IMG/VR virus record: IMGVR_UViG_3300037189_023236
Origin: a virus
Direction: 5' to 3' (one strand)
DNA length: 64,000 nucleotides
Shown: positions 1,157 through 61,278 of the stretch, one piece after another
How the letters are laid out: each line of letters starts with the position of its first letter
Position numbering within the stretch: position 1 is the stretch's first letter
Translations under genes and position numbers: made by a program
The notes under the pieces: generated by a model
Told to the model about the DNA's origin: nothing
The model's database searches: none
The model's input: only the letters and a program-made list of their open reading frames with translations

Positions 1157-1339
1157 TTAACTCGTTTTATCAGAGGTGATGAGCTTGAACAGCACTACAC
1201 AAATTTGCGCTACTCCGAATAAAAATGAGAGCATGCCGTGAACAAATAAGGCAACTACCAGATTTGCTCCGTCCTCGAGCCATTGAAGATCTGCGTCGTT
1301 TTTACCGCGATAATAATTTTTTCCGCTGTAGTGACCCAT
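1157..1339 (-). CDS. small membrane protein (60 aa from ATG 1339)
   Basis: Hydrophobic C-terminal half. Its ATG abuts the terminase ATG in CATATG (1337-1342). Confidence 0.45.
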   Translation of the reverse strand: MGHYSGKNYYRGKNDADLQWLEDGANLVVALFVHGMLSFLFGVAQICVVLFKLITSDKTS

Positions 1340-3262
1340 ATGCCGTCCAATACTTTGCAGAGTGACGTTCTGCTGCGTGAACAAGCGTTAGAAATACCCG
1401 ACAAGGGCATTAACGATCTTGTTCAGGAATTGCTCAATATTGACCAGGCAGATGCGCAAGCATTCGGTGCCCGGTCAGCTGTTTTGACGGAACTCGCTAA
1501 TAAAAAGTTCTTCCCGTCGCTCGAACCGCTGCTGCCGTTGGTGCTTAATTTAAACGGCAAGCCATACACTTTAACGCAGCACTACCCGTTTGCTCCTTTA
1601 TTCCGTTTACTGATGCCCAAAAACATGGTGCTCAAAACCGGGCGCCAGGTTAGTAAATCGACATCGCTTGCGGCGCACGGTGTAGTGCTAGCGAATTGTT
1701 TGCCGTTTTTCAAAACTCTCTACGTAACGCCACTGTACGAGCAGATTCGCCGTTTCAGTAACAACTACGTGCGATCGTTCATCGACCAATCTCCGATTAA
1801 GGATCAATGGTGCGGAACAGATACAGAGAACAATGTGCTTCAACGTTCGTTCAAGAACAAAAGCATTATGTTGTTCAGTTTCGCGCTATTAGACGCTGAC
1901 CGAGTCCGCGGTATCAGTACAGACCGCGTGGTCATGGACGAGATTCAGGACATGGATCCGGATCACATTCCAATTATTCAGGAAACGATGTCCTATAGTC
2001 GTTACGCCATTTTGCACATGGCCGGGACGCCAAAAAGTCTAGACAACCCGCTCGAGGGCGCGTACAAGCGCTCGAGTGGTGCTGAGTGGTTTATTCCTTG
2101 CGAGTCGTGTCGTCACTGGAACATACCAACGCTCGATCACGATCTAGACGCTATGATCGGCGACTTCAATATTCACATTAGCGAGAAGTATCCGGGCACA
2201 GTTTGCGCGAAATGCCGAAAACCAATTAATCCGCGGCATGGGCGTTGGGTTCATCGCAAGCCGGATTTGCGCTGGCAGTTTTCCGGCTATCATGTGCCGC
2301 AAATTATCTTGCCGCTCCACTTTGCCGACCCCGAAAAGTGGAGCACGCTGCTGATGAAACGCGAGGGCTTCGGCAACATGACGCAAGCGCAGTTCTACAA
2401 CGAAGTCATGGGCGAATCCATTGACTCCGGCCAGAAATTAATCACAGAAACCGAATTACGCGACGCAGCTATTTTGCCGTGGGAGAACAAAAAAGAACCC
2501 GATCCTGAAGTAACCAATCGATTAAAACACTACAAACATCGCGTAATGGCCATCGACTGGGGCGGCGGCGGTGAAGAAGGAATTTCATTTACCGTTATTA
2601 CTATTCTTGGATTCGGCAATGACGGCACAATTGATGTTCTGTGGGGCAAACGTATTTTGCTTGGCGCGGAACATCTTGCCGAAGCTGTCGAGTGCATGAA
2701 GTGGGCGGACTATTTCAAAGTTGATTACGTCGCTCACGACTACACTGGCGCCGGTACTGTGCGCGAAACAGTTATGGTTCAAGCCGGGTTTAACCTCGAC
2801 CGCGTTATGGCCGTTAGGCTTGTACGCGCGGCTAGTCAGGACATTATGGTGTTCAAACCGGCGACTGCCCTTAATCATCGACAACATTATTCGTTGGATA
2901 AGACGCGATCGCTGCTCTACACGTGCCAAGCGATTAAACTCAAGCAGATCAAGTTCTTTAAATACGACTGGGTGTCGCAAGACAGTCCCGGCCTAATATC
3001 TGATTTTCTGGCGCTTGTAGAAAACAAAGCCGAATCGCGACTAGGCGGCGACATCTACACGATTACAAGAAACACACTCCTTAGCGATGACTTTGCGCAA
3101 GCTGTGAATTTAGGATGTGCCGCCATTTGGCACATCAATCAAGCCTGGCCCAACTTTGCCGAAATAGCCGGCCTCGGGCGCATCAGCGGACAGCAGGCTG
3201 TCGCTGAGAACCCGGAAGATTGGGCAGACGACGACATGGGCAACCGATTTTTCGGTTACTGA
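1340..3262 (+). CDS. terL: terminase large subunit (lambda GpA-like)
   Basis: Walker A-like KTGRQVSKST, Walker B VVMDEIQD, GTPK coupling motif, CxxC...CxxC Zn site, and nuclease-domain AIDWGGG. ATG 1340 is preferred over TTG 1283. Confidence 0.9.
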   Translation: MPSNTLQSDVLLREQALEIPDKGINDLVQELLNIDQADAQAFGARSAVLTELANKKFFPSLEPLLPLVLNLNGKPYTLTQHYPFAPLFRLLMPKNMVLKTGRQVSKSTSLAAHGVVLANCLPFFKTLYVTPLYEQIRRFSNNYVRSFIDQSPIKDQWCGTDTENNVLQRSFKNKSIMLFSFALLDADRVRGISTDRVVMDEIQDMDPDHIPIIQETMSYSRYAILHMAGTPKSLDNPLEGAYKRSSGAEWFIPCESCRHWNIPTLDHDLDAMIGDFNIHISEKYPGTVCAKCRKPINPRHGRWVHRKPDLRWQFSGYHVPQIILPLHFADPEKWSTLLMKREGFGNMTQAQFYNEVMGESIDSGQKLITETELRDAAILPWENKKEPDPEVTNRLKHYKHRVMAIDWGGGGEEGISFTVITILGFGNDGTIDVLWGKRILLGAEHLAEAVECMKWADYFKVDYVAHDYTGAGTVRETVMVQAGFNLDRVMAVRLVRAASQDIMVFKPATALNHRQHYSLDKTRSLLYTCQAIKLKQIKFFKYDWVSQDSPGLISDFLALVENKAESRLGGDIYTITRNTLLSDDFAQAVNLGCAAIWHINQAWPNFAEIAGLGRISGQQAVAENPEDWADDDMGNRFFGY

Positions 3263-5633: not shown

Positions 5634-5706
5634 AGCCGAAGGTCGGACTCGAACCGACGACCTACTGATTACAAATCAGTAGCTCTACCAACTGAGCTAC
5701 TTCGGC
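5634..5706 (-). tRNA. tRNA-Thr(UGU)
   Basis: Reverse complement GCCGAAGTAGCTCAGTTGGTAGAGC-ACTGA TTTGTAA TCAGT-GGTTCGAGTCC...CTTCGGC gives a full cloverleaf with anticodon TGT. CCA is not encoded. Confidence 0.96.
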
Positions 5707-8652: not shown

Positions 8653-9838
8653 GAATATGCTAGATCACACGCAAGACATCAGCGGCCGCGAAACCCATCG
8701 GTTATTGTCTTTGTATACGCCGCCGGATTTTGTTAAATCTGCGTCCGCTGACCGGCTCAACGGCGATCCCGAAAAGCTTGCTAGGCATCTTTACGCCGAT
8801 CCGAGCAAGAAACTTTATCCATGCCATACAGCTCCTGCTACTTGGATGTCTGCATTATGGTTTACCGAAAAACGAGCAGAATTTGACGCCGCGATGGCCT
8901 CGACCATCGAAACGCGCATTAAAACGGCTGCAAACTATTTTGGCATCGCGGGGGCCGTAGAGCAATTAATGGAGAAAGTGGCCCGCGACAACAGCAACGA
9001 ATTGGCCAAGCTACCCGACACGGCATTTGCCATCGTTTGGAAAGACGAAGCCGGCAACACTGAACGCCACTGGCCCATGCGCAATGCGACCGAGGTTAAG
9101 TTTGCCTGCGCGCATTTCCGCAAGTATCGCGACGAGTTCATTTTTGCCGATCGGCATAAAATCGCTAATAAAATTCTCGACAAGGCGCTCGAGTTTGGGG
9201 CCGACACATCGGCGGCGGAGGGCATTTTGGAGTCGACGGCCGGGCGTGGCTTGTGCGCCACAAAAGTCGCGGCCGAGCTTCTCAGGGACCGCGCTGCACG
9301 TACGGCTAGGACGCACGCAGCGCTTAGCGAAGAAATGACCAAGCTTGCCGAGTTAGTAGAAGCAAACCCGGCAGAAACGCAGCACGAAGAGTGCCGGCTA
9401 AAGCTGGCCGCCGTAATTGATCAATTTGACCGCGAGACGAAGCTCTGCCGGTTGTACGACGATAACGGCCTCTCTCGCGCTGAAGAAGTCCTTTTCGCTA
9501 TCACCGAGAAGGTTGCCCGCGATTTTATGAGTGAAAACGTGGAAACAACCACCGGTAATGTGTACGCCCTGGAAGATATCGAAAAACTGGCTGTTGAAGA
9601 TATTCGCAGCTGGATGGGCGACGACTTTGCGGACGCTGTCTCAACCGGCGGCGTCTACACGGATCGCGACAAGCTGGCGGCAATTGTTCCCACGCTTGAT
9701 CGTGGAATGGCCGCCACTTTCGACCGGCTTATGCAAGAAAAGCGCGCCTATCCGATTGTGACAAAGGCGGCCGCGGCGTCGCTAATGCCCGAAGACAGGC
9801 TTTATGATTTAGCCGCAGAGTTTAAGTTTGACGGCTGA
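8651..9838 (+). CDS. putative head-associated protein with two DUF6582-like repeats
   Basis: LPDTAFA...RHWPMRNATEVKFA and the related LARHLYA...KLYPCHTAPATWMS. Many K-x-A motifs. Start is ATG 8651 or 8633. Confidence 0.55.
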   Translation: MNMLDHTQDISGRETHRLLSLYTPPDFVKSASADRLNGDPEKLARHLYADPSKKLYPCHTAPATWMSALWFTEKRAEFDAAMASTIETRIKTAANYFGIAGAVEQLMEKVARDNSNELAKLPDTAFAIVWKDEAGNTERHWPMRNATEVKFACAHFRKYRDEFIFADRHKIANKILDKALEFGADTSAAEGILESTAGRGLCATKVAAELLRDRAARTARTHAALSEEMTKLAELVEANPAETQHEECRLKLAAVIDQFDRETKLCRLYDDNGLSRAEEVLFAITEKVARDFMSENVETTTGNVYALEDIEKLAVEDIRSWMGDDFADAVSTGGVYTDRDKLAAIVPTLDRGMAATFDRLMQEKRAYPIVTKAAAASLMPEDRLYDLAAEFKFDG

Positions 9839-10035
9839 GTCGCGGCAATTCGCTGTCTTTGTGCGCGCAAGTCAAACTTGATTTTCGGAATTAGTTCCGA
9901 GCGCAATACCGTTACGTTTGGCGGCGCGACAAAACCAAGGCGCACAGAGCCGTTGTCGCGGATCTCAATGACTTTAACCTGAATATCCTCGCCAATTTCG
10001 ATTGTCTCGCCCTCTCGACGCGTTAAAACAAGCAC
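9802..10035 (-). CDS. csrA: carbon storage regulator CsrA/RsmA
   Basis: MLVLTRREGETIEIGEDIQVKVIEI..GSVRLGFVAPPNVTVLRSEL is the CsrA consensus. Confidence 0.93.
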   Translation of the reverse strand: MLVLTRREGETIEIGEDIQVKVIEIRDNGSVRLGFVAPPNVTVLRSELIPKIKFDLRAQRQRIAATQPSNLNSAAKS

Positions 10036-11914: not shown

Positions 11915-12394
11915 CTATTGTTCGCTGTTAAATTTTTTGATGTGCGCCAGCCTTGCCGCATAGAACTGCGCGATCATCGGCGCCACGCCCTCAAAATTTT
12001 TCTGGATATCCGGCAGCACGACCTCTCGAAACACGCGAATAATCGTAGCCTCTAGCCGGCTTAGCGCTTCTTTCGTGTAGCGGGCGGACGCTGCCTGCAT
12101 AGCCGCTTCGCGCACTTCTGGAGACGTGTCAAGCAAAATCTGCAGATACGTCGGGCAGATAAACCGCGCCTCGTGACCAAGTGCGCGCATTGTTTTTAGC
12201 GTTTCTTGCGGCGCGCTAAAAATTGGCTTTCCAGGATCCGGGTCTTTTTTGTCCAAGCTCTTCGGATCTGGGTGCCGAATATTTTTCAGCAGCCAGCCGT
12301 ATTCTGCGATATCAGAATTCGGATCTGACATCGTGTATGCCGCTTTTGGCCGCGTCGGTGCATTCGGGTCGTGGAGTGTGTGTCTCTTTGCCAT
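11915..12394 (-). CDS. hypothetical protein
   Basis: 159-aa ORF, the first gene downstream of the structured non-coding region. Confidence 0.6.
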   Translation of the reverse strand: MAKRHTLHDPNAPTRPKAAYTMSDPNSDIAEYGWLLKNIRHPDPKSLDKKDPDPGKPIFSAPQETLKTMRALGHEARFICPTYLQILLDTSPEVREAAMQAASARYTKEALSRLEATIIRVFREVVLPDIQKNFEGVAPMIAQFYAARLAHIKKFNSEQ

Positions 12395-12442
12395 GCTCGC
12401 TAATAGCTAAGGAAAATCGTGATAGGTAAGACATAACGCTGG

Positions 12443-12493
12443 TGTACCAAGACTTTGCAACCTGTAAAAACAATGTTGCAAAGTCTTGGTACA
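12443..12493. repeat. perfect 19-bp inverted repeat (13-nt loop)
   Basis: TGTACCAAGACTTTGCAAC (12443-12461) and GTTGCAAAGTCTTGGTACA (12475-12493). Confidence 0.9.
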
Positions 12494-12510: not shown

Positions 12511-12913
12511 TGAACTTCAGATGGCGATACCCGCGGAGAAAGTGCTACCACTTTCCTTGACCCTGTGATCCGCTTATTAGGCTACGCATACCATTCGGCG
12601 CAACTTGTTAACGCTGATCAGGCGTTAACTTATTGGGCTAGTGATATGCCGCAGGATTTTCACCTGCACCCCCCGCTCTCCTAAGTCGTGGTTAGTCGAG
12701 GATAGACCATTGGCGTCTGTGTACCCTAGCACTAAGCGTGGCCGGGCGCGTGGTCGCTACTCCACACACAGACTCAAGTGCCTTAGCACCTACCCTCACA
12801 GAATTCAACCACCAAGGTTGCTCCCGACCCCTTGCGGAATCGGCCTCAGTGTGCGTGCACCTAGAGATAGGGTCATCTCACACGCTTCTGCGGATACCGC
12901 CATCTGAAGTTCA
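12511..12913 (-). ncRNA. candidate large structured ncRNA (~400 nt), class unknown
   Basis: 16-bp perfect terminal stem that extends with G-U pairs only on the minus strand, about 8 internal hairpins including a GCAA tetraloop and a UGAAAAU T-loop-like loop, and a 7-nt potential pseudoknot. Confidence 0.7.
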
Positions 12914-12950: not shown

Positions 12951-12988
12951 AATATGCCAGCATTTTGGCAAAAATTTAGCAGTCAGAA
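12951..12988 (-). promoter_or_regulatory. putative phage promoter, copy 1 (CTAAA-N16-GGCATATT)
   Basis: 24 of 38 positions are identical to 61321-61358. It lies about 40 nt upstream of the candidate ncRNA. Confidence 0.55.
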
Positions 12989-13285
12989 AGTGACCTGGCT
13001 AATCTGCCCAGTCGCCGACGCCTGTACGATTGTGATCGACTTTGTGTCGAGTAGTCGTTTGAGTTCTTCTTTTTTTTCTGCGCTCAGTGACACTAGGCAG
13101 TTTTTAATGTTGGCCAGCGCGGTACGTTGCGCATCAGCACGCCGGCGGGCGCACGCGCCGCAGCCTGTTTTCGCTGGAGCTATTGCTGTTTTCTGATTGA
13201 ACAGGCACGGAATCGCCGCCGTAAATTTTTCGTCGTTTACCATGGCTGCGATCGTACTGTCTTCAATTACAACTATTTCACGCAT
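12983..13285 (-). CDS. small Cys-containing protein
   Basis: 100 aa with GCGAC, last gene of the structural operon. Confidence 0.65.
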   Translation of the reverse strand: MREIVVIEDSTIAAMVNDEKFTAAIPCLFNQKTAIAPAKTGCGACARRRADAQRTALANIKNCLVSLSAEKKEELKRLLDTKSITIVQASATGQISQVTF

Positions 13286-16873: not shown

Positions 16874-19800
16874 TTAAGGTAGTGTAATTACAGGGAGCGC
16901 GGCTGTGTTTGGGCCGCATAAATCGCGAAAACCGACGCTATTTGAATTACTCGGTGTAATAGCGGTAACTAGATCTAGCGTCGTGATTGTATTGGTGGTT
17001 ATGTCGTGCGTATACCATTGACCCGCGATTATGTTGTGCAGATACACAAGGTTGTACGCTGCGTTAAACGATACTTGCATGCCGGCCATACCGCTTTTTA
17101 ACAACGTAAAAGACGCGTTTGGCGTATTCACGTTTAATGTGTACATGTACCCGGTGTTTGTACTGGCGTATAGTAGGCCAGTGTTTGGGTTGATAGCAAA
17201 GTCGCCAAATCGGTTGTCGATACTGGTTTGCACATTTGTTTGAATTATTTGCGGCTGCCCGGCAGTTACGCTTGCGCCGTAGGTCAGCGGTATTTTTATC
17301 AGCTCACGCGAGTTTCTTACGCCAGTGTAACTAGTGGCTTTCGGGTAAAAAAACCACACAGCGTTATTGTAATATGCCGCGCCAGCCGGTACTTCTGTTA
17401 AGTCAATGACGGCGGCGTTTATCGTTATTTTTGTGAACGTATTGGCTGGGATATTCCATAAATACATATCGCCGGGGACAGCGCCGTCAAATACGAATAA
17501 ATGCTGGCGCGCTGGGTCAAAAGCCAATGCGTTTGGCGACGTCGTTAGCATTGTTTTACGGACGGGCGAGCTCGTTTTTGCCGCTGGATTTATCTGCCAA
17601 ATTACGCCGTTGTTGTCGACGCCGTATACGTACGTATTGACTGAAAGCTCTTCGGCCACGCGAAAACCTAAAAATCGCGTAGAGTGCGTTGCGGCTCTGT
17701 ATGTTGGCGGGCTGGCTGCGTTAAACGTCTCGCCAAGTGCCGTAAAACCTCCCGACATTATCGGCACCTGCCCGTCGACAATAGTATCTGTCCACTCAGC
17801 TAAATTGCCTACCATGTCTAATCCGCCATAGTACGATTGCGATCCGGCGCCAAACGTGCCGACGGGTGTTGAGTCGCCGATACCGCCTTCAATATTTGCG
17901 GTGTTTGTTTGCGCAGTTGGACTTGTGGCTACAGTCGGTTTTGTATCGGTGCCGGTGCCCCACGTGTAATAGCCGCCTATGCCGTTATTTAATAGCGGAC
18001 TGTAGAATGCGGCTTTGTACCACTCGTCACGGCTGGGCAGAAACGCTTTTGCCCCTATATTTCGCGGCACCGGGGTTGTCGTTGTTTTTGTCAGAGTATA
18101 AGCGCCGTATTCCGTGCTCGCCGGGTCGTTTGTCATGCCGTTATGCAACCAGTTAGCAAAACGCGCTGCCGACGGCCACGAGACATGGCACACAGGGCGC
18201 GATGCAAGCAACGGATCGCTTATGTACGAATAATTGCCAACCGTACCGAGTTGCGTGATACCAACAACGCCTTGCGCTAGCGTGTAGATGTTGTTGTCAT
18301 TTACCCGACCAACCGCATTTAAAAATTCTACGTACTGCGCTGTAGATATTTCAGTTGCAGATATTTTGTAGCCATACGCAACCGAACCTACCCCGACGTT
18401 GTTTGTTTTTGTCGACGGTGGGTTGCTCAGGTCATACACATTCTTAAACGTTATTGCGTTTTGCAGTGGTTTCGCTATCGGAGTTGGCGTGGGTGTCGGT
18501 GTAATTGTTGGCGTGGGTGTAATTGTCGGCGTCGGAGTAGGCGTCGGCGTTGCGTTAACGTTCCAAATCAACGCCGCTGTGCCGTGATCCGCCGATATTT
18601 GCATGACGTTGTTAAGCAGCAATTTACTAGTATTCGGAATTTGCGGTGTTGTCGTATTACGGCCTAGATCGGCGCGATCGCAACCCCACGTAAATACGCC
18701 GTCGCGCTCGGCCGCAACACCGACGACAAAGCCGCTGCCTATTTTGATGTCCGCCCATAAATTTGTGTTTAGCTGTGTCAATACTGGCAGAACTAGTGCG
18801 GCACTACTTGTTTGAAATGTCGTGTAACCAAAAATATTGCACTCGGTGTTCAAACCACAACCCCAAAGTGTTCCATTTCGTTTTATTGCTAGTGTAGTAA
18901 CCGGCCCGACGCTGACCGTTGCCCAATCACTATCAGGGCTTAACTGCCTAATATCTCCAACGGAGGTAGCGCGACCGGGAGTGAACACGCCGAGTTGTCT
19001 GTACGTATTTTGGCCCCAGCCCCACAGCGTTCCGTCAGATCTAATAGCTACTACATGCGGGCCGGCGGCTATTTTGGTGTACGTATGCGTACCGATGCGC
19101 GCGGGATCGCTGTAAAGAGCGCCGCCGTCAAGCGAACTTACTCCCCAGTGCCACAGTGAGCCGTCTGTTTTAAGCGCAAACACCTCAGCGTCGGCGCAAA
19201 CAATTTCGGCCCAGTCTGTAGCTTCGCTGATTTTTGTAGGTACAAAAACTGATTGATTTTCGGCAATACCGCTTCCGGCTGTTAGTTGCCAATTACGATT
19301 TGAGCCCCAGCCCCAAAGCGTACCATTCTGTTTTATGGCGAAAGAGCACGTATATCCGGCAGCTACTGCTGCCCAATCGTTGTTTGCGCCCACGCTACTC
19401 GGTATTTCAACATTTTCACCTCGGCCGTATCGTGTAAATAACAGATCGCTACCCAAACCGAGCTGACCGTCCGGCCCGCTACCAAATACAAAAATTGTGC
19501 CGTTAGCGCGTAATCCAATTGTGTGATGATAATTAGCGCTAATTTTTGCCAAATTTAAACTGAATGCCGCGTCGGGTAGGTTCGGCATGTATACAACAGG
19601 TATAACTCCGGAAGAAATATCACGATAACCTAATGCGTTATTTGTATTTCGACCCCAGACGCGTGCCTGTAAACCGGGTGGTGGTGTGGGTGTAGGTGTC
19701 GGCGTCGGCGTATTAGTCGGCGTTGGTGTAGGTGTGGGTGTTCTTGTCGCGGTTGGTGTCGGTGTGGAGGTTCTAGTCGGTGTAGGTGTGGGTGTAGGCG

Positions 19801-21184
19801 TAGGTGGTACAGGGGTGTTAGTCGGCGTGGGCGTCGGTGTAGGTGTGGGCGTTCTAGTCGGTGTTGGAGTAGGCGTTGGCGTAGGCGGAATAGGCGTCGG
19901 AGTTGGCGTCCTAGTTGGCGTAGGTGTGGGCGTTGGTGTAGGCGGTACGGGCGTCGGAGTGGGCGTCCTAGTTGGTGTCGGTGTGGGGGTTCTAGTCGGT
20001 GTTGGAGTGGGCGTGGGTGTTCTTGTCGGTGTAGGTGTGGGCGTAGGCGTCGGTGTAAGCCCGCTAGCGAAAATACCCAAAGAGAAATCAGTAGAGTGAC
20101 TAATGCTGACGGCTAAGCACGTATTTGTGCCAACCATTGCCGGCACTGTAATCGTGGAGCCTGCGAAAGAGCCGAGGCCGAGCTGGCCGAAGGCATTATT
20201 GCCCCACATAAATAACCGACCGTCTGACCGAATAGCTGCGGAAGAATAACGACCAGCGGCTACTCTAGTAAAAACAGTCGGCGAACCAATTGTGACAGGT
20301 ACAGCAACTTGAGTTGGCGTAGAGACGTCAAAGGATGTATAACCCAAACCCAATTCGCCGGAAGTGTTTGAACCCCACGCAAATAACACACCGTCTTGTC
20401 TAACGGCTATGGCGTAAGTATTTCCTTTGACTGACACATCTGCGCAAAAAAGTAATGGACCAACCGGCGACGGAAAATAATTCGGCGCGGTGGCCGTGCT
20501 TCTACCAAGCGGAACGCGGTTGTTGGCGCCCCACGTATACAATTGCCCGTTTTGATCTATAGCCGCTACGGTTGCCTCCGTGCCTGTACTGCACGACACG
20601 GCCACAAATCTGTTTAAGCCAACAATAGAATTTTGTCCGGCTACTTGAACTGGGTAAACCGCGTAATTGTCTTGGCTTGACGCGAATCCAAGGTTGCCCG
20701 TCCCCCATCCGAACAACCTACCGTCAGCGCGAATTGCAAATGTGTTTTGATATCCGCAAGACACTGCAATCCAGTTGTCATTGCCTATTTGTATAGGTGT
20801 TAATCGCGAAGTGAGCGTACCGTCGCCGAGCTGTCCGAACGAGTTGGCACCCCACGTGAATAACTTACCGTCGCTGCGAATTGCAGCCATGTGCATATAA
20901 CCAGCGTCAACAGCGCGCCAGTTGTCGTTGCCTAATTGTCTAGGTGTTCTTTCAACCCCCGAGGCATCGCTGAACCCTAAAAGATTGTTGCCGGCATTGC
21001 CCCATGTAAATAGTTTGCCAGTGCTGCTTATACCTGCGCCGACCCAAGACCCGGCAGAAATCGCGGACCACGTAGTACCAATTACTTGCGCCGGCGTCGT
21101 GCGCGAACCGCCATCGGCGTGCCCGAGCTGGTACAGCGTATTGGCGCCCCAGGAGTATAAAAAGCCTGGCGTGGTTGTAATCAT
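16874..21184 (-). CDS. multidomain protein: two RCC1/BLIP-II propellers, FGE-sulfatase (C-type lectin-like) domain, C-terminal propeller, PT linkers
   Basis: Repeated DGxLFxWGxNxxGQLG. FGE motifs [37 protein letters not shown] and LGFRV. Confidence 0.85.
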
Positions 21185-58835: not shown

Positions 58836-58980
58836 TTTTGCCGAATTCTTTTACGTATTTAAGTAGCGGATCGTTCTTTGGCAAGCTTGGCGCGAGCTTG
58901 TATTTTGGCAGTGGCTGTATTGGTTTGCCGGCTAGCTTTATTTTTGGCAGCACTGGCTCGTTTTTATTCGCGCGCGCCAT
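58822..58980 (-). CDS. small Lys/Pro-rich protein (52 aa, not in the ORF track)
   Basis: MARANKNEPVLPKIKLAGKPIQPLPKYKLAPSLPKNDPLL..., TGATG-coupled to the upstream gene and filling the gap exactly. Confidence 0.6.
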   Translation of the reverse strand: MARANKNEPVLPKIKLAGKPIQPLPKYKLAPSLPKNDPLLKYVKEFGKNDRR

Positions 58981-60239
58981 CAGATATCCCAGAAATTGTT
59001 AACAACGCGGGCATTGCTGGGCGGGGTTGGGCAAATAACGTCTGGCTCTGCCGCGCTACTGCTAGACGAACTACACGAACTACATGGAGTATCAACAACC
59101 GCGCATGGATTTTCAACTGTTATTTCAAAATTGTTTGGGCCGTACGCGTCGGGTTTCTCGTACACTAGCACGTATTTTCCCGGATCTAAGTTCAATGCGT
59201 TAACCCACGTACCGTCTGCCAGTGTTTTTGTACTGGCTACCGCGTCTGTTTTTAAAGGATAAACCGGGTATGTACGGTCAAAATTTGCTTTCTCAAATGC
59301 GTGTACATACGCATTAACAATAAACGCGCCGTTCGCGTCTTTGTATTTCAACGCGTTAGCCGAAACGCCAGCCCAGTCCGAATTTACTGTCACGCAGCCA
59401 GTTCCGGGGACCAATGGCCACGTGGGTTGCGGCTGCTCGAGCTCTATGCTGTAAATACCGTTGTGAAACGGCACGAGGCCCAGCTTAACCTGATAAATGA
59501 GCGGCACACCACGCAAAGCCGCAGCGATTGCAATTTCACTAACAACCCAGCGCTCGTCTGTTGTAGCGTTAACCCAGATATCGTAGTTGTTTAAAGCCGG
59601 ATACCCGATAACGCGCGCCTGAATGTACGGATTTTCTCGCGACGTACCTTTCAGCTGCAAATCTTGCGTTTCGCTGATTACTTGGTTAGACAAATCCCAA
59701 CACTGCAGCGGAACAGCCGGATGAAAACCGATTTCAAACCCCGTGCCGTTACACAGCGGACAGTTATTATCTGATGGTTCTTGCGTCAAAGGATCGCGGC
59801 AGCGGCTGCACGGTTTACCGTAACGCAGCGCTTTAATTAGGTATCCATCTACGGCTACCTTGTTTAACCGCAAACGCTCTTTACGTACGATCTCTCTAGC
59901 GAGCAGCCAATCATGCTCAGAAAGCATTCCCGAGCACGGCGCCGGCTCTGACACATAAACCGACGTAGGCGTGGTAAGCGTAACGCGGTAATGCGTGGTA
60001 ATTATGCTGCCGCTATTTCGCCAAACTGTGTCAACGGCCACAAACCCATTAACAACAGGATTGCCGACGTTTTGCCAATCGATAGCTTCCGATACGCCTG
60101 CGCTGCCCGCTTGTAACTGAAAAACATACGGGCCGGCTTCATGAAAATCGCGCTCGAGCTGCCACCAAACACGCGTTTCGCCGCGTGTCATGTGATCTAC
60201 AGAGATACGGCGAAACGGATAGTTTTTTTGTAGCGACAT
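58980..60239 (-). CDS. putative neck/head-closure protein with Zn-finger
   Basis: CSRC...CPLCNGTGFEIGF, a Ser tract near the C-terminus, and synteny. Confidence 0.55.
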   Translation of the reverse strand: MSLQKNYPFRRISVDHMTRGETRVWWQLERDFHEAGPYVFQLQAGSAGVSEAIDWQNVGNPVVNGFVAVDTVWRNSGSIITTHYRVTLTTPTSVYVSEPAPCSGMLSEHDWLLAREIVRKERLRLNKVAVDGYLIKALRYGKPCSRCRDPLTQEPSDNNCPLCNGTGFEIGFHPAVPLQCWDLSNQVISETQDLQLKGTSRENPYIQARVIGYPALNNYDIWVNATTDERWVVSEIAIAAALRGVPLIYQVKLGLVPFHNGIYSIELEQPQPTWPLVPGTGCVTVNSDWAGVSANALKYKDANGAFIVNAYVHAFEKANFDRTYPVYPLKTDAVASTKTLADGTWVNALNLDPGKYVLVYEKPDAYGPNNFEITVENPCAVVDTPCSSCSSSSSSAAEPDVICPTPPSNARVVNNFWDI

Positions 60240-60294
60240 CGCGCGTCTCTATTCCGATTAAAGCGACATATTCATTATGCCCGCGCTGATAGCT

Positions 60295-60334
60295 AAAAAA
60301 AAGCGGGGCGGCGGCGGTCAAACCGCTGCCTCGC
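60295..60334 (-). terminator. rho-independent terminator
   Basis: GC-rich imperfect hairpin followed by T8 on the minus strand. Confidence 0.6.
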
Positions 60335-60414
60335 AAACTTAGCGCTGGACCACAGTCCGCGCCAGGTTTAAGCGGCCGAGTTCGAAAACACGGCCGCTTC
60401 ACAACAGGAGACGT

Positions 60415-60771
60415 TTAGCGCCCGACGAGGACCATCTTGCCGCGCTTGAAGCGCGTGCCGATTTTACGGCCTCGTGGGCTTGGCGGCTCGTACTTCACCC
60501 CCAAGCGCACCAACTTCGCCGCGCGATTGGCGGCGAAGACGTACGCCGACCCGACCACCCGGGTAGCGATGTACGGGTTACGCTCTAACCCGTAATTGCC
60601 GTCGGGGTAGGCGTCAAGAAACGCCTCAGCCGCATCGGAACGAATACGATATAGCGTCGCCGATGATATTGGGCGCTTGCCCATATGTACCCGGAACTTG
60701 TTTACCTGCGTCAAAATCTGCTTAAAACTGACCGCACAACTACAAGCCCAACGACCTTTCTTCTTTGCCAT
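60415..60771 (-). CDS. small basic protein, possibly nucleic-acid binding
   Basis: 118 aa, Lys/Arg-rich, AGGAG RBS. Confidence 0.6.
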   Translation of the reverse strand: MAKKKGRWACSCAVSFKQILTQVNKFRVHMGKRPISSATLYRIRSDAAEAFLDAYPDGNYGLERNPYIATRVVGSAYVFAANRAAKLVRLGVKYEPPSPRGRKIGTRFKRGKMVLVGR

Positions 60772-60825
60772 TATTATGGCTCCTGTTGCGTTCTTTCCTC
60801 CATGAAACGGCCGACGCTACGCACG

Positions 60826-61278
60826 TCAACCACCGTCCGAGCTAGTCTCGCCAGTTGCACGCTTGTGCCCGGCTTCAATTACGCGCTCGGCGACGTAAGT
60901 CCAATCCACCATCGTTAACGACGCTTTGACTACACACACAACGTGCATAAGTCCAGCAGCGCTCCGCGTGGCGTTGTCCTTTAATTTTTTGATTTGTTTT
61001 TCAGTTACCGCGTCACCAAGCGCGTCGACCTGCATTAGCGTCTTTGTGACCATCAAGATCGACTCTTTTGTCAGTCGATCGATTAGGTGCTCGGCAAACG
61101 CTGCGGTGGCTGAGTACGCCTCTTCCGGGAACGGGCTGCCGTCCCCCGGGGGAAATTGGTATTCGGCTTGCGTTTTCAGTAACGCGCCGTAAATAGTGCC
61201 GCTTTCATCATCATCGTTTTTTTCTTTGTTGATGATGAGTTCGGCAATGTAAGAAGACAACTCATCGACTGCGAGCAT
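60826..61278 (-). CDS. hypothetical protein
   Basis: 150 aa with a GGAGG RBS. Confidence 0.6.
   Translation of the reverse strand: MLAVDELSSYIAELIINKEKNDDDESGTIYGALLKTQAEYQFPPGDGSPFPEEAYSATAAFAEHLIDRLTKESILMVTKTLMQVDALGDAVTEKQIKKLKDNATRSAAGLMHVVCVVKASLTMVDWTYVAERVIEAGHKRATGETSSDGG

What the first reader, a model, noticed from the sequence alone, without database searches (positions are those of the whole stretch)
12511..12913. Candidate novel ~400-nt structured phage ncRNA with a closing stem, GNRA and T-loop-like hairpins and a pseudoknot
Seen: this is the longest gene-free gap in the window. TGAACTTCAGATGGCG (12511-12526) is the exact reverse complement of 12898-12913. The stem extends about 8 more pairs using G-U wobbles on the minus strand, which would be A-C mismatches on plus, so the minus strand is the likely RNA. 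Inside, on the minus strand: GCGUG/CACGC enclosing GAGAU-GACCCU-AUCUC; CCGAUUCC-GCAA-GGGGUCGG; CAACC/GGUUG; GUGC-UAAG-GCAC; a GUCUGUGU/ACACAGAC multiloop; GCAGG-UGAAAAU-CCUGC; GUUAACGC-CUGAUCA-GCGUUAAC; and GAAAGUG-GUAG-CACUUUC. UGACCCU (12869-12875, spanning the first hairpin loop) is complementary to AGGGUCA (12558-12564), a possible long-range pseudoknot. A promoter-like motif lies upstream and a 19-bp hairpin downstream. Established: phages carry large ncRNAs of unknown function such as GOLLD and ROOL. I could not match this one to RNase P, tmRNA, 6S or group I/II consensus by eye. Inference: an independently transcribed, complexly folded RNA, possibly a new class.
Basis: partly seen in the sequence, partly recalled or inferred. 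Interest (0 to 1): 0.9.

Follow-up and report, generated by a model that had tools for sequence, protein, structure and literature searches.

The report
New ornate RNA of jumbo phages
The gap holds a real gene for a roughly 400-base, intricately folded non-coding RNA. It matches no catalogued RNA family, occurs in related uncultured jumbo phages at two different genome positions, and may pair with itself as the large phage RNAs GOLLD, ROOL and OLE do.

Summary
The structured RNA is real. Window 12511-12913, minus strand, encodes a 403-nt RNA closed by a 24-26-bp stem.

I found 14 distinct full-length homologues in three subfamilies that are only 55-61% identical.
- On 13 hand-mapped helices (104 base pairs), 98.8% of cells are standard pairs and 72 pairs show double compensatory changes.
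- With the partners slid, 33-44% of cells pair and 2-6 pairs covary.
- There are 175 G-U cells against 9 A-C cells, which fixes the minus strand.
- Rfam 15 has no match for any subfamily, even at E<=10.

Close relatives carry the RNA in the same slot, or have the slot empty. More distant ~200-kb jumbo phages carry it elsewhere, 3-5 kb downstream of their tRNA cluster (plus a tmRNA where ARAGORN finds one).

The 19-bp "downstream hairpin" belongs to the next gene's leader and is not a terminator.

The 7-nt loop L12 switches between the palindromes GUAC and GAUC. That is the signature used for intermolecular kissing loops in OLE and GOLLD, here resting on one evolutionary event.

Function is unknown. 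My best reading is a trans-acting, excised, self-associating RNA. This scan had already flagged this family, or a close look-alike, in another genome.

The parts
12511..12913 (-). Whole structured RNA, 403 nt from the first to the last base of P1
   Evidence: MFE z = -6.7. nhmmer hits to homologues at E of 1e-31 to 1e-121. 13 helices with covariation.
12888..12913 (-). P1, 5' strand of the closing stem
   Evidence: 24 bp plus a mismatch plus 1 bp. All 26 aligned pair positions covary across subfamilies, and length is kept at about 24 bp while the sequence turns over completely.
12511..12536 (-). P1, 3' strand of the closing stem
12853..12885 (-). P2 (GCGUGU/GCACGC) enclosing hairpin P2a (GAGAU-GACCCU-AUCUC) and the near-invariant UAGGU
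   Evidence: P2 covaries at 2 of 6 pairs. The core CCUAUCUCUAGGUGCA is nearly invariant, with L088 differing. In subfamily B the inner hairpin is replaced by ACCUA-UCUC-UAGGU.
12810..12851 (-). P3 (CACUGAGG/CCUUGGUG) with inserted hairpin P3a (GCAA loop) and the conserved GAGCA loop segment
   Evidence: 7 of 8 P3 pairs covary. P3a is present only in subfamilies W and M, with loops GCAA, UUCG or AACG.
12796..12808 (-). P4, 5' strand (long-range helix)
   Evidence: Pairs with 12557-12568. 6 of 11 aligned positions covary.
12557..12568 (-). P4, 3' strand.
12780..12788 (-). P5 and P6, 5' strands (UGCU, bulged A, AGGC)
Evidence: They pair with 12571-12582 (GCCU, AAUA, AGCG). P6 covaries at 3 of 4 pairs and P5 at 1 of 5.
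12571..12582 (-). P6 and P5, 3' strands
12715..12773 (-). P7 (GUCUGUGU/ACACAGAC) and its variable interior
   Evidence: 8 of 8 pairs covary. The interior differs between subfamilies.
12670..12702 (-). P9 domain (UCCUCG/CGGGGG, CU/AG, with conserved GACUA and AGGAGAGC)
   Evidence: 3 of 8 aligned pairs covary, and the junction motifs are conserved in sequence.
12651..12667 (-). P10 hairpin (GCAGG-UGAAAAU-CCUGC)
   Evidence: 3 of 5 pairs covary.
12586..12649 (-). P11 (GCAUAUCA/UGGUAUGC) enclosing P12
   Evidence: 5 of 5 aligned P11 pairs covary.
12607..12629 (-). P12 hairpin (GUUAACGC-CUGAUCA-GCGUUAAC). Loop L12 lies at 12615-12621, with the palindrome GAUC (UGAUCA).
   Evidence: 7 of 8 pairs covary. 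The loop is CUGAUCA in W and L088 and CCGUACA in M and B, palindromic in both. In six of the eight B sequences GUAC occurs nowhere else in the RNA.
12537..12556 (-). P13 hairpin (GGAAAGUG-GUAG-CACUUUCU)
   Evidence: 3 of 8 pairs covary. The loop is GUAG or GUGA.
12952..12980 (-). Phage promoter-like motif GCTAAATTT-N-AAAA-N-GGCATAT, about 40 nt upstream of P1
   Evidence: It is the only instance in the window: 1 match found against 0.01 expected by chance. The same motif stands at the same place in relatives with a filled or an empty slot, and before other genes.
12443..12493 (-). 19-bp hairpin. It is a conserved element of the 5' leader of the 159-aa gene and not part of the RNA.
   Evidence: Perfect 19-bp inverted repeat. 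It is kept with compensatory changes in relatives, including those that lack the RNA. No U-run follows it, and the scan finds no terminator there.
11915..12394 (-). Downstream 159-aa gene (weak HEAT-repeat match). This is the gene whose leader hosts the RNA.
12983..13285 (-). Upstream 100-aa gene. Its stop abuts the promoter motif.

Best explanation
Window 12913-12511 (minus strand) is the gene of a stable, trans-acting, highly structured non-coding RNA of a family that is not catalogued.

Shown:
- The RNA folds into 13 conserved helices. A roughly 24-bp closing stem (P1) is followed by two 5' hairpin domains (P2, P3). A coaxial long-range stack (P4-P5-P6) then opens into a five-way junction carrying P7, P9, P10 and P11/P12. 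A 3' hairpin (P13) sits next to P1.
- The family is carried by a clade of uncultured ~200-kb jumbo phages at two different loci.
- The version in this phage is closer (75%) to that of a distant phage than to that of its close relatives (about 60%). The RNA therefore behaves as a self-contained, exchangeable cassette.

Inferred:
- Here it is transcribed from the phage promoter motif at 12980-12952 as the first part of the 159-aa gene's transcript.
- P1 insulates the fold from its context and probably serves as a double-strand-specific (RNase III-type) processing stem that releases a discrete ~400-nt RNA. The stem keeps its length of about two helical turns while its sequence turns over completely.
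- The palindromic loop L12 (GAUC here, GUAC in the other subfamilies) pairs with the same loop of a second molecule. The active form would then be a homodimer or larger homo-oligomer, as in OLE, GOLLD and ROOL.

The cellular role is unknown. The position of most members just downstream of the phage tRNA cluster (with a tmRNA in four of six genomes) hints at a translation- or RNA-metabolism-related accessory role during infection.

My odds for the separate claims: real structured RNA family not in Rfam, about 0.95; acts in trans rather than as a leader, about 0.75; RNase III-type excision at P1, about 0.4; self-association through L12, about 0.3.
For: - **Structure.** 104 pairs, 98.8% standard cells, 72 pairs with double compensatory changes. 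Slid controls give 33-44% and 2-6. The tool's own consensus on three lineages gave 32 of 105 compensatory pairs.
- **Strand.** 175 G-U cells against 9 A-C cells.
- **Non-coding.** No conserved frame; the longest open frames are 58-92 aa and vary between members.
- **No known family.** Nothing for this RNA at the gathering score (the window's only match is a tRNA at 5634-5706), and nothing over it at E<=10 for W, M or B. ARAGORN finds no tmRNA or tRNA here.
- **Two loci.** The same slot holds it in L052-58, L062-63, L083-87. Another locus holds it in G001, G003, G004, G005, G013, G016 and in shorter IMG/VR contigs (L096, L097, L101, L104).
- **tRNA neighbourhood.** In six genomes it lies 3-5 kb downstream of the tRNA cluster. 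ARAGORN finds a tmRNA there in G001, G003, G013 and G016, and none in G004 or G005.
- **Accessory.** The slot is empty in six close lineages. Three complete genomes lack it.
- **Cassette exchange.** The RNA is 75.5% identical to G005's but 59-61% to the M type, whose flanking 100-aa protein is 86% identical.
- **P1.** 26 of 26 positions covary at constant length.
- **L12.** It switches between two palindromes. In six of eight B sequences GUAC occurs only in L12. The same kind of switch supported intermolecular kissing loops in OLE L9.3 and GOLLD L21a (bioRxiv 10.1101/2024.12.08.627333, read).
Against: - Expression, ends and processing are therefore inferred.
- The L12 palindrome switch rests on a single evolutionary event, W plus L088 against M plus B. 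In W and L088 a second GAUC lies at the P5/P4 junction and could be an intramolecular partner.
- RNase III processing is inferred only from helix length and perfection.
- In the window the nearest tRNA is 6.8 kb away, so the tRNA link does not hold for this copy.
- Only 14 distinct full-length sequences from one phage clade exist. All pattern scans of larger collections gave only this clade or chance hits.
Confidence: 0.6

Rival explanations
1. It is a cis-acting leader element (a riboswitch-like or protein-binding regulator) controlling the downstream 159-aa gene.
For: In the window and in the M-type phages it lies between the promoter motif and the conserved leader hairpin, ribosome-binding site and start of the 159/161-aa gene. 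No terminator lies in between.
Against: - The same RNA sits at the 3' end of an unrelated operon, after a 95-aa gene and before an intrinsic terminator, in the eight other-locus phage contigs checked.
- Six close lineages express the 161-aa gene from the same promoter and leader without it.
- A closing stem joins its two ends, which suits a self-contained module.
- At 350-410 nt it is far larger than known leaders.
Confidence: 0.08
2. It is the RNA subunit of a ribonucleoprotein or a ribozyme. A phage or host protein binds the invariant loops, for example the 95-aa WNNQWW-motif protein encoded immediately upstream of most members.
For: - Many invariant unpaired nucleotides, such as CCUAUCUCUAGGUGCA, GAGCA, GACUA and AGGxGAGC.
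- The 95-aa gene ends about 25 nt before the RNA in all B-type loci and lies about 400 nt upstream in G005.
- tblastn finds it in none of the three complete genomes that lack the RNA.
Against: - The 95-aa protein has no Pfam or PHROG family.
- Its model has only moderate confidence, and no structural match reached E<=0.001; the best was about 1, so the search was uninformative.
- It has no homologue in this 64-kb window. No homologue cluster sits on a contig with the length of this phage's contigs, which is weak evidence.
- No catalogued ribozyme model in Rfam matches.
Confidence: 0.2
3. It is a DNA-level element: a miniature inverted-repeat transposable element, or a recombination or packaging site whose terminal inverted repeats are what matters.
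For: It has 27-nt terminal inverted repeats. It shows presence/absence polymorphism and two genomic locations.
Against: - The arm sequences differ completely between subfamilies yet stay complementary, with G-U wobbles that would be A-C mismatches in DNA.
- Twelve further internal helices covary.
- There is no second copy in the window.
- I saw no target-site duplication at the ends.
Confidence: 0.02
4. It is a decayed protein gene, or chance structure in a spacer.
For: More distant relatives hold a 124-aa gene or other ORFs in the same slot.
Against: tblastn of that 124-aa protein finds nothing here. Covariation is overwhelming. Homologues exist at another locus.
Confidence: 0.01

Closest known systems
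GOLLD and ROOL RNAs (large ornate RNAs of phages and prophages; Rfam families; cryo-EM in bioRxiv 10.1101/2024.12.08.627333)
   Same: - It is phage-borne, large, multi-junction and of unknown function.
- It has no tightly linked protein gene across all members.
- Most members lie near the phage tRNA island.
- It carries a conserved hairpin loop with a palindromic core that could make a symmetric intermolecular kissing contact.
   Different: - There is no sequence or structure match to either covariance model at E<=10.
- It is shorter, at 350-410 nt against about 580 and more than 800.
- A long, perfect closing stem joins its ends.
- Oligomerisation is only inferred here.
OLE RNA (dimer held by, among others, a palindromic kissing loop, L9.3)
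   Same: A loop tetranucleotide switches between palindromes (GUAC and GAUC here; GGCC, GAUC and AGCU in OLE L9.3, per the paper read).
   Different: OLE is a bacterial (Firmicutes) RNA of about 610 nt with known protein partners. There is no Rfam match here. Only one switch event is seen in this family.
Phage T4 stable RNAs species 1 and 2 (rnaC, rnaD), encoded with the T4 tRNA cluster (from my own knowledge, not tested here)
   Same: They are phage-encoded stable RNAs of unknown function that sit beside the phage tRNA genes and are processed from longer transcripts.
   Different: The T4 RNAs are about 120-140 nt and much simpler. I made no homology test beyond the negative Rfam scans and do not know whether Rfam holds them.
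rRNA and phage T7 early-transcript processing stems cut by RNase III (textbook knowledge)
   Same: A long, near-perfect duplex formed by the sequences flanking a functional RNA, able to release it from a longer transcript. P1 keeps about two helical turns in every member.
   Different: Cleavage was not shown. P1 may serve only to insulate and stabilise the fold.

Membership tests
GOLLD RNA (Rfam) | Match to the family covariance model | tested here: not met
   No match at the gathering score or at E<=10 for the window copy or for the M- and B-type homologues.
ROOL RNA (Rfam) | Match to the family covariance model | tested here: not met
GOLLD/ROOL-like ornate phage RNAs (loose functional kind) | Phage-borne and often next to tRNA islands | tested here: inconclusive
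   Met for the other-locus members in G001, G003, G004, G005, G013 and G016, which lie 3-5 kb from the tRNA cluster. Not met for the window copy, whose nearest tRNA is at 5634-5706.
GOLLD/ROOL/OLE-like ornate RNAs | RNA-only homo-oligomer held by kissing loops and A-minor contacts | not testable with these tools
   There is only the sequence signature: L12 switches between the palindromes GUAC and GAUC.
tmRNA | tRNA-like domain formed by the ends, plus a tag reading frame | tested here: not met
   ARAGORN finds no tmRNA at the locus. It does find separate genuine tmRNAs in related phages. No Rfam match.
RNase P RNA, 6S RNA, SRP RNA | Match to the Rfam covariance models | tested here: not met
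Group I / group II introns | Match to the catalytic-core models, and insertion within a gene with exons to be joined | tested here: not met
   No Rfam match. All copies are intergenic: in a leader here, and after a stop codon in the other locus.
Riboswitch / cis-regulatory leader | Constant position upstream of the same regulated gene family | tested here: not met
   It stands upstream of the 159-aa gene in W and M, but at the 3' end of a different operon in B and G005.
MITE / TIR transposable element | Sequence-conserved terminal inverted repeats, target-site duplication, multiple copies | tested here: not met
   The arms covary at 26 of 26 positions with G-U wobbles. The window holds a single copy. 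No duplication is seen at the ends.
DGR template repeat / retron msr-msd | Adjacent reverse transcriptase; template/variable repeat pair or a1/a2 plus msd | tested here: not met
   Neighbouring ORFs show no RT domain. The region has no repeat elsewhere in the window.

The most novel reading that the evidence does not exclude
This is a new class of self-assembling, ornate phage RNA. Two or more copies would join through the palindromic L12 kissing loop into an RNA-only dimer or larger assembly. The module would be exchanged horizontally between jumbo phages and dropped into whatever transcription unit is at hand, with P1 as a built-in excision and insulation stem.
Probability: 0.3. Interest if true: 0.85.

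Novelty: categorically new. Interest (0 to 1): 0.78.

Why it matters
Only a handful of natural non-coding RNA classes above 300 nt have unknown function (GOLLD, ROOL, OLE, raiA, HEARO). Each has led to unexpected biology, most recently RNA-only nanocages.

This family is a compact, exceptionally well-supported addition, with 72 covarying pairs from only 14 sequences. Four features make it experimentally tractable:
- a size suitable for cryo-EM;
- a clear candidate intermolecular contact that can be tested by swapping GAUC and GUAC;
- natural presence/absence variants among near-identical phages;
- evidence that it moves as a cassette between phage genomes and loci.

It also fits the recurring, unexplained link between large phage RNAs and phage tRNA islands (a tmRNA sits there too in four of the six genomes).

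Tried and rejected
- **Rfam.** Nothing over the RNA at the gathering score, and nothing at E<=10 on W, M or B. Only microRNA-like chance hits fall on the neighbouring leader hairpin.
- **Phage GenBank collection.** blastn found no match.
- **Pattern scans.**
  - The 16-mer of P1 gave 25 chance hits.
  - Exact core 21- and 22-mers gave 0 hits in the viral and metagenome collections.
  - A degenerate two-block pattern gave 0 viral, 2 genome and 7 metagenome hits, all chance by nhmmer and by eye.
  - One mis-specified pattern wasted a scan.
  - The corrected one recovered only the same phage clade plus two chance hits.
- **DGR template/variable repeat idea**, prompted by an FGE-sulfatase-domain protein nearby: the region has no repeat elsewhere in the window.
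- **CsrA-sponge idea**, prompted by a phage CsrA gene 2.5 kb away: by eye I counted 4 GGA motifs in about 400 nt, no more than chance and not placed in hairpin loops. Dropped.
- **tmRNA or RNase P relationship**, prompted by the tRNA/tmRNA neighbourhood: ARAGORN and Rfam are negative, and four of the six phages checked carry a separate genuine tmRNA.
- **Base-pairing of conserved loops with the neighbouring phage tmRNA and tRNAs.** No duplex was clearly better than shuffled controls. The best were 5/200 and 6/200 among 48 comparisons.
- **95-aa upstream protein as partner.** No family. The model has pLDDT 70, and no PDB match reached E<=0.001.
- **Palindrome avoidance.** GATC and GTAC are not depleted in these genomes, so this adds nothing to the L12 argument.
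- **Could not be run.**
  - The contigs behind L053, L058, L063, L068 and L069 are not held, so I could not ask whether phages with a filled or empty slot also carry a copy at the other locus.
  - MAFFT's structural modes are not installed. I therefore mapped the helices between subfamilies by hand from three subfamily RNAalifold consensus folds.

Full report
**Observation**

The stretch 12511-12913 lies between a 100-aa gene (12983-13285, minus) and a 159-aa gene (11915-12394, minus) of a phage-like contig. The contig carries a terminase gpA domain at 1283-3262 and very large ORFs.
- The 16-mer at 12511-12526 is the exact reverse complement of 12898-12913, and the arms extend to 27 nt.
- The minus strand folds to -184.9 kcal/mol (z = -6.7) and the plus strand to -159.8 (z = -6.6). 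Energy alone does not pick the strand.
- Rfam 15 gives nothing for this stretch at the gathering score. At E<=10 only chance microRNA-like hits appear, on the neighbouring 19-bp hairpin.

**Homologues in the same slot**

I used the flanking 100-aa protein to reach closer relatives and fetched their contigs.
- The RNA is present, 98-100% identical, in L052-L056 and L087.
- It is present as a strongly diverged version, about 60% identical, in L057/L058 and L083-L086, and in L062/L063.
- The 100-aa protein of these diverged lineages is still 78-86% identical to the window's.
- Six other close lineages, with 70-81% protein identity, have only about 195 nt in the slot and no RNA.
- More distant IMG/VR relatives (~200-kb jumbo phages) hold a 124-aa gene or other ORFs in the slot. 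tblastn with that protein finds nothing in the window.

**Homologues at another locus**

This prompted a search of the relatives' whole contigs.
- G005 carries a copy 78% identical by BLAST (75.5% in my alignment) at 137 kb, about 95 kb from the slot.
- G001, G003, G004, G013 and G016, and four shorter IMG/VR contigs (L096, L097, L101, L104), carry a third subfamily.
- There the RNA starts about 25 nt after the stop of a conserved 95-aa gene and has no promoter motif of its own. It is followed by extra hairpins and a canonical intrinsic terminator.
- In all six genomes checked it lies 3-5 kb downstream, on the same strand, of a Lys-Leu-Val-Glu-Leu tRNA cluster. ARAGORN also finds a tmRNA there in four of them (G001, G003, G013, G016) and none in G004 or G005.
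- Three complete genomes (G002, G010, G018) lack it by BLAST and by nhmmer with all filters off. tblastn also finds no homologue in them of the 95-aa gene or of the 161-aa gene just upstream of it.
- The family is therefore widespread in this phage clade but accessory.

**Structure**

RNAalifold on each subfamily gave the same architecture three times: W is the window, L087 and L088; M is L057, L084 and L062; B is eight sequences. I mapped 13 helices between the subfamilies pair by pair.
- Of 104 base pairs, 98.8% of cells are standard pairs, and 72 pairs carry double compensatory changes.
- With the 3' partners slid by 1-3 columns, 33-44% of cells pair and 2-6 pairs 'covary'.
- There are 175 G-U cells against 9 A-C cells, so the RNA strand is the window's minus strand.
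- The tool's own consensus on three lineages had already given 32 compensatory pairs of 105.
- No open frame is conserved.
- The M- and B-type copies also have no Rfam match at E<=10.

- Confirmed: the closing stem P1, P2 with its inner hairpin, P3a (the GCAA hairpin), P7, P10, P12 and P13.
- Not supported: CAACC/GGUUG, because CCUUGGUG is the 3' strand of P3.
- Not supported: GUGC-UAAG-GCAC, because in every subfamily UGCU.AGGC pairs at long range with GCCU-AAUA-AGCG as P5 and P6.
- Not supported: the pseudoknot UGACCCU/AGGGUCA. AGGGUCA is the 3' strand of P4 and changes freely while the loop is invariant.
- The GCAA tetraloop is UUCG or AACG in M and the whole hairpin is missing in B. It is therefore not a conserved tertiary contact.

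**Transcription context**
- The motif GCTAAATTT...GGCATAT at 12980-12952 is the only instance in the window, against 0.01 expected by chance.
- It stands at the same place in all relatives, whether the slot is filled or empty. Another note of this scan lists it as a recurrent promoter box elsewhere in this genome; I did not check that.
- In slot-empty relatives the order is promoter, conserved long hairpin, TTTTCCTTAGCTATT, ribosome-binding site and the 161-aa gene.
- The hairpin 12443-12493 covaries among relatives and has no U-run. The simple scan sees no terminator between the RNA and the 159-aa gene.
- I therefore read the hairpin as part of the 159-aa gene's leader, with the RNA inserted into that leader. 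A discrete RNA then needs processing.

**Mechanistic inferences**
1. P1 keeps about 24 bp, two helical turns, and is nearly perfect in every member, while all 26 aligned positions change. That fits a stem that insulates the fold in any transcript context and is cut by a double-strand-specific nuclease of the RNase III type, as rRNA precursors are. Cleavage is not shown.
2. The RNA behaves as a portable cassette. It occupies two loci. The window's version is 75.5% identical to that of the distant phage G005 but only 59-61% to that of the close M-type relatives, which sits in the very same slot.
3. The 7-nt loop of P12 is CCGUACA in M and B and CUGAUCA in W and L088, while its closing pairs covary.
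   - Both cores are palindromes, GUAC and GAUC.
   - Adjacent nucleotides cannot pair within one loop. The cryo-EM study of OLE, ROOL and GOLLD used exactly this kind of palindrome-to-palindrome switch as evidence for intermolecular kissing loops.
   - In six of the eight B sequences GUAC occurs nowhere else in the RNA.
   - The evidence is thin. There is one evolutionary event, and W and L088 have a second GAUC at the P5/P4 junction.
4. Most members sit just downstream of the phage tRNA cluster. The same habit is reported for ROOL and GOLLD near tRNA islands.

**Leads that failed**

These were the DGR, CsrA-sponge, tmRNA/RNase P, antisense-to-tRNA/tmRNA, 95-aa partner protein and palindrome-avoidance ideas. 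Expression could not be tested.

**Verdict**

This is a genuine new family of large structured phage RNA. The same scan had already noted this family, or a close look-alike, in another genome (notes e1-5409693 and e1-5409705). The new points here are:
- the second locus and the empty-slot variants;
- the cassette exchange;
- a 13-helix model with controls;
- the palindromic-loop signature.

Function remains unknown.

Noticed in passing
window 9802-10035 (-): A 77-aa ORF with a typical CsrA N-terminus (MLVLTRREGETIEIG...). Relatives have a gene with a Pfam CsrA match at the same position. So this is a phage-encoded CsrA homologue 2.5 kb from the RNA.
   Followed up: partly
window 12443-12493 and 12395-12442 (-): A conserved 19-bp leader hairpin followed by the motif TTTTCCTTAGCTATT just before the ribosome-binding site of the 159-aa gene. 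Both are kept, the hairpin with compensatory changes, in relatives with or without the RNA. AGCTAT also follows the U-run of canonical terminators in related phages.
   Followed up: partly
L031, L034, L036, L037, L038, L046, L049, L030: first ~115 nt after the 100-aa gene: A conserved, long, GC-rich branched hairpin element sits between the 100-aa gene and the promoter motif in more distant relatives. The window lacks it.
   Followed up: no
L103 7338-7682, L102 4613-4957, L124 2987-3335, L109 3502-3861, L129 9922-10269, L142 7759-8103, L143 9468-9808: The related jumbo phages encode their own tmRNA next to a five- to six-gene tRNA cluster. The tags are GAYAPALAA, GAHAPALAA, GAPLALAA or GTFNSVPALAA, or an odd long tag as called by ARAGORN. 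G004 and G005 show the tRNAs but no tmRNA call.
   Followed up: partly
L103 3554-3841 (-) and homologues (alignment A4): A 95-aa protein family with an invariant WNNQWW...GxRYKT motif lies directly upstream of every B-type RNA and about 400 nt upstream in G005. It is confined to this phage clade (31 clusters), has no Pfam or PHROG family and no structural match.
   Followed up: yes
window 16874-21184 (-): A 1436-aa protein with RCC1-like repeats and an FGE-sulfatase (C-type-lectin-like) domain. It sits next to a 2412-aa ORF that has no Pfam match.
   Followed up: no
window 60240-60825: A second gene-free gap of almost the same length (586 nt), between ORFs at 58980-60239 and 60826-61278. Not examined.
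   Followed up: no
window 5634-5706 (-): The only tRNA in the window is tRNA-Thr (TGT), found by both Rfam and ARAGORN.
   Followed up: no
L084 against L057, helix P5: Both partners of one P5 pair changed, U-A to C·U, giving a mismatch rather than a compensatory pair. This may be a register shift, a tolerated mismatch or an assembly error.
   Followed up: no
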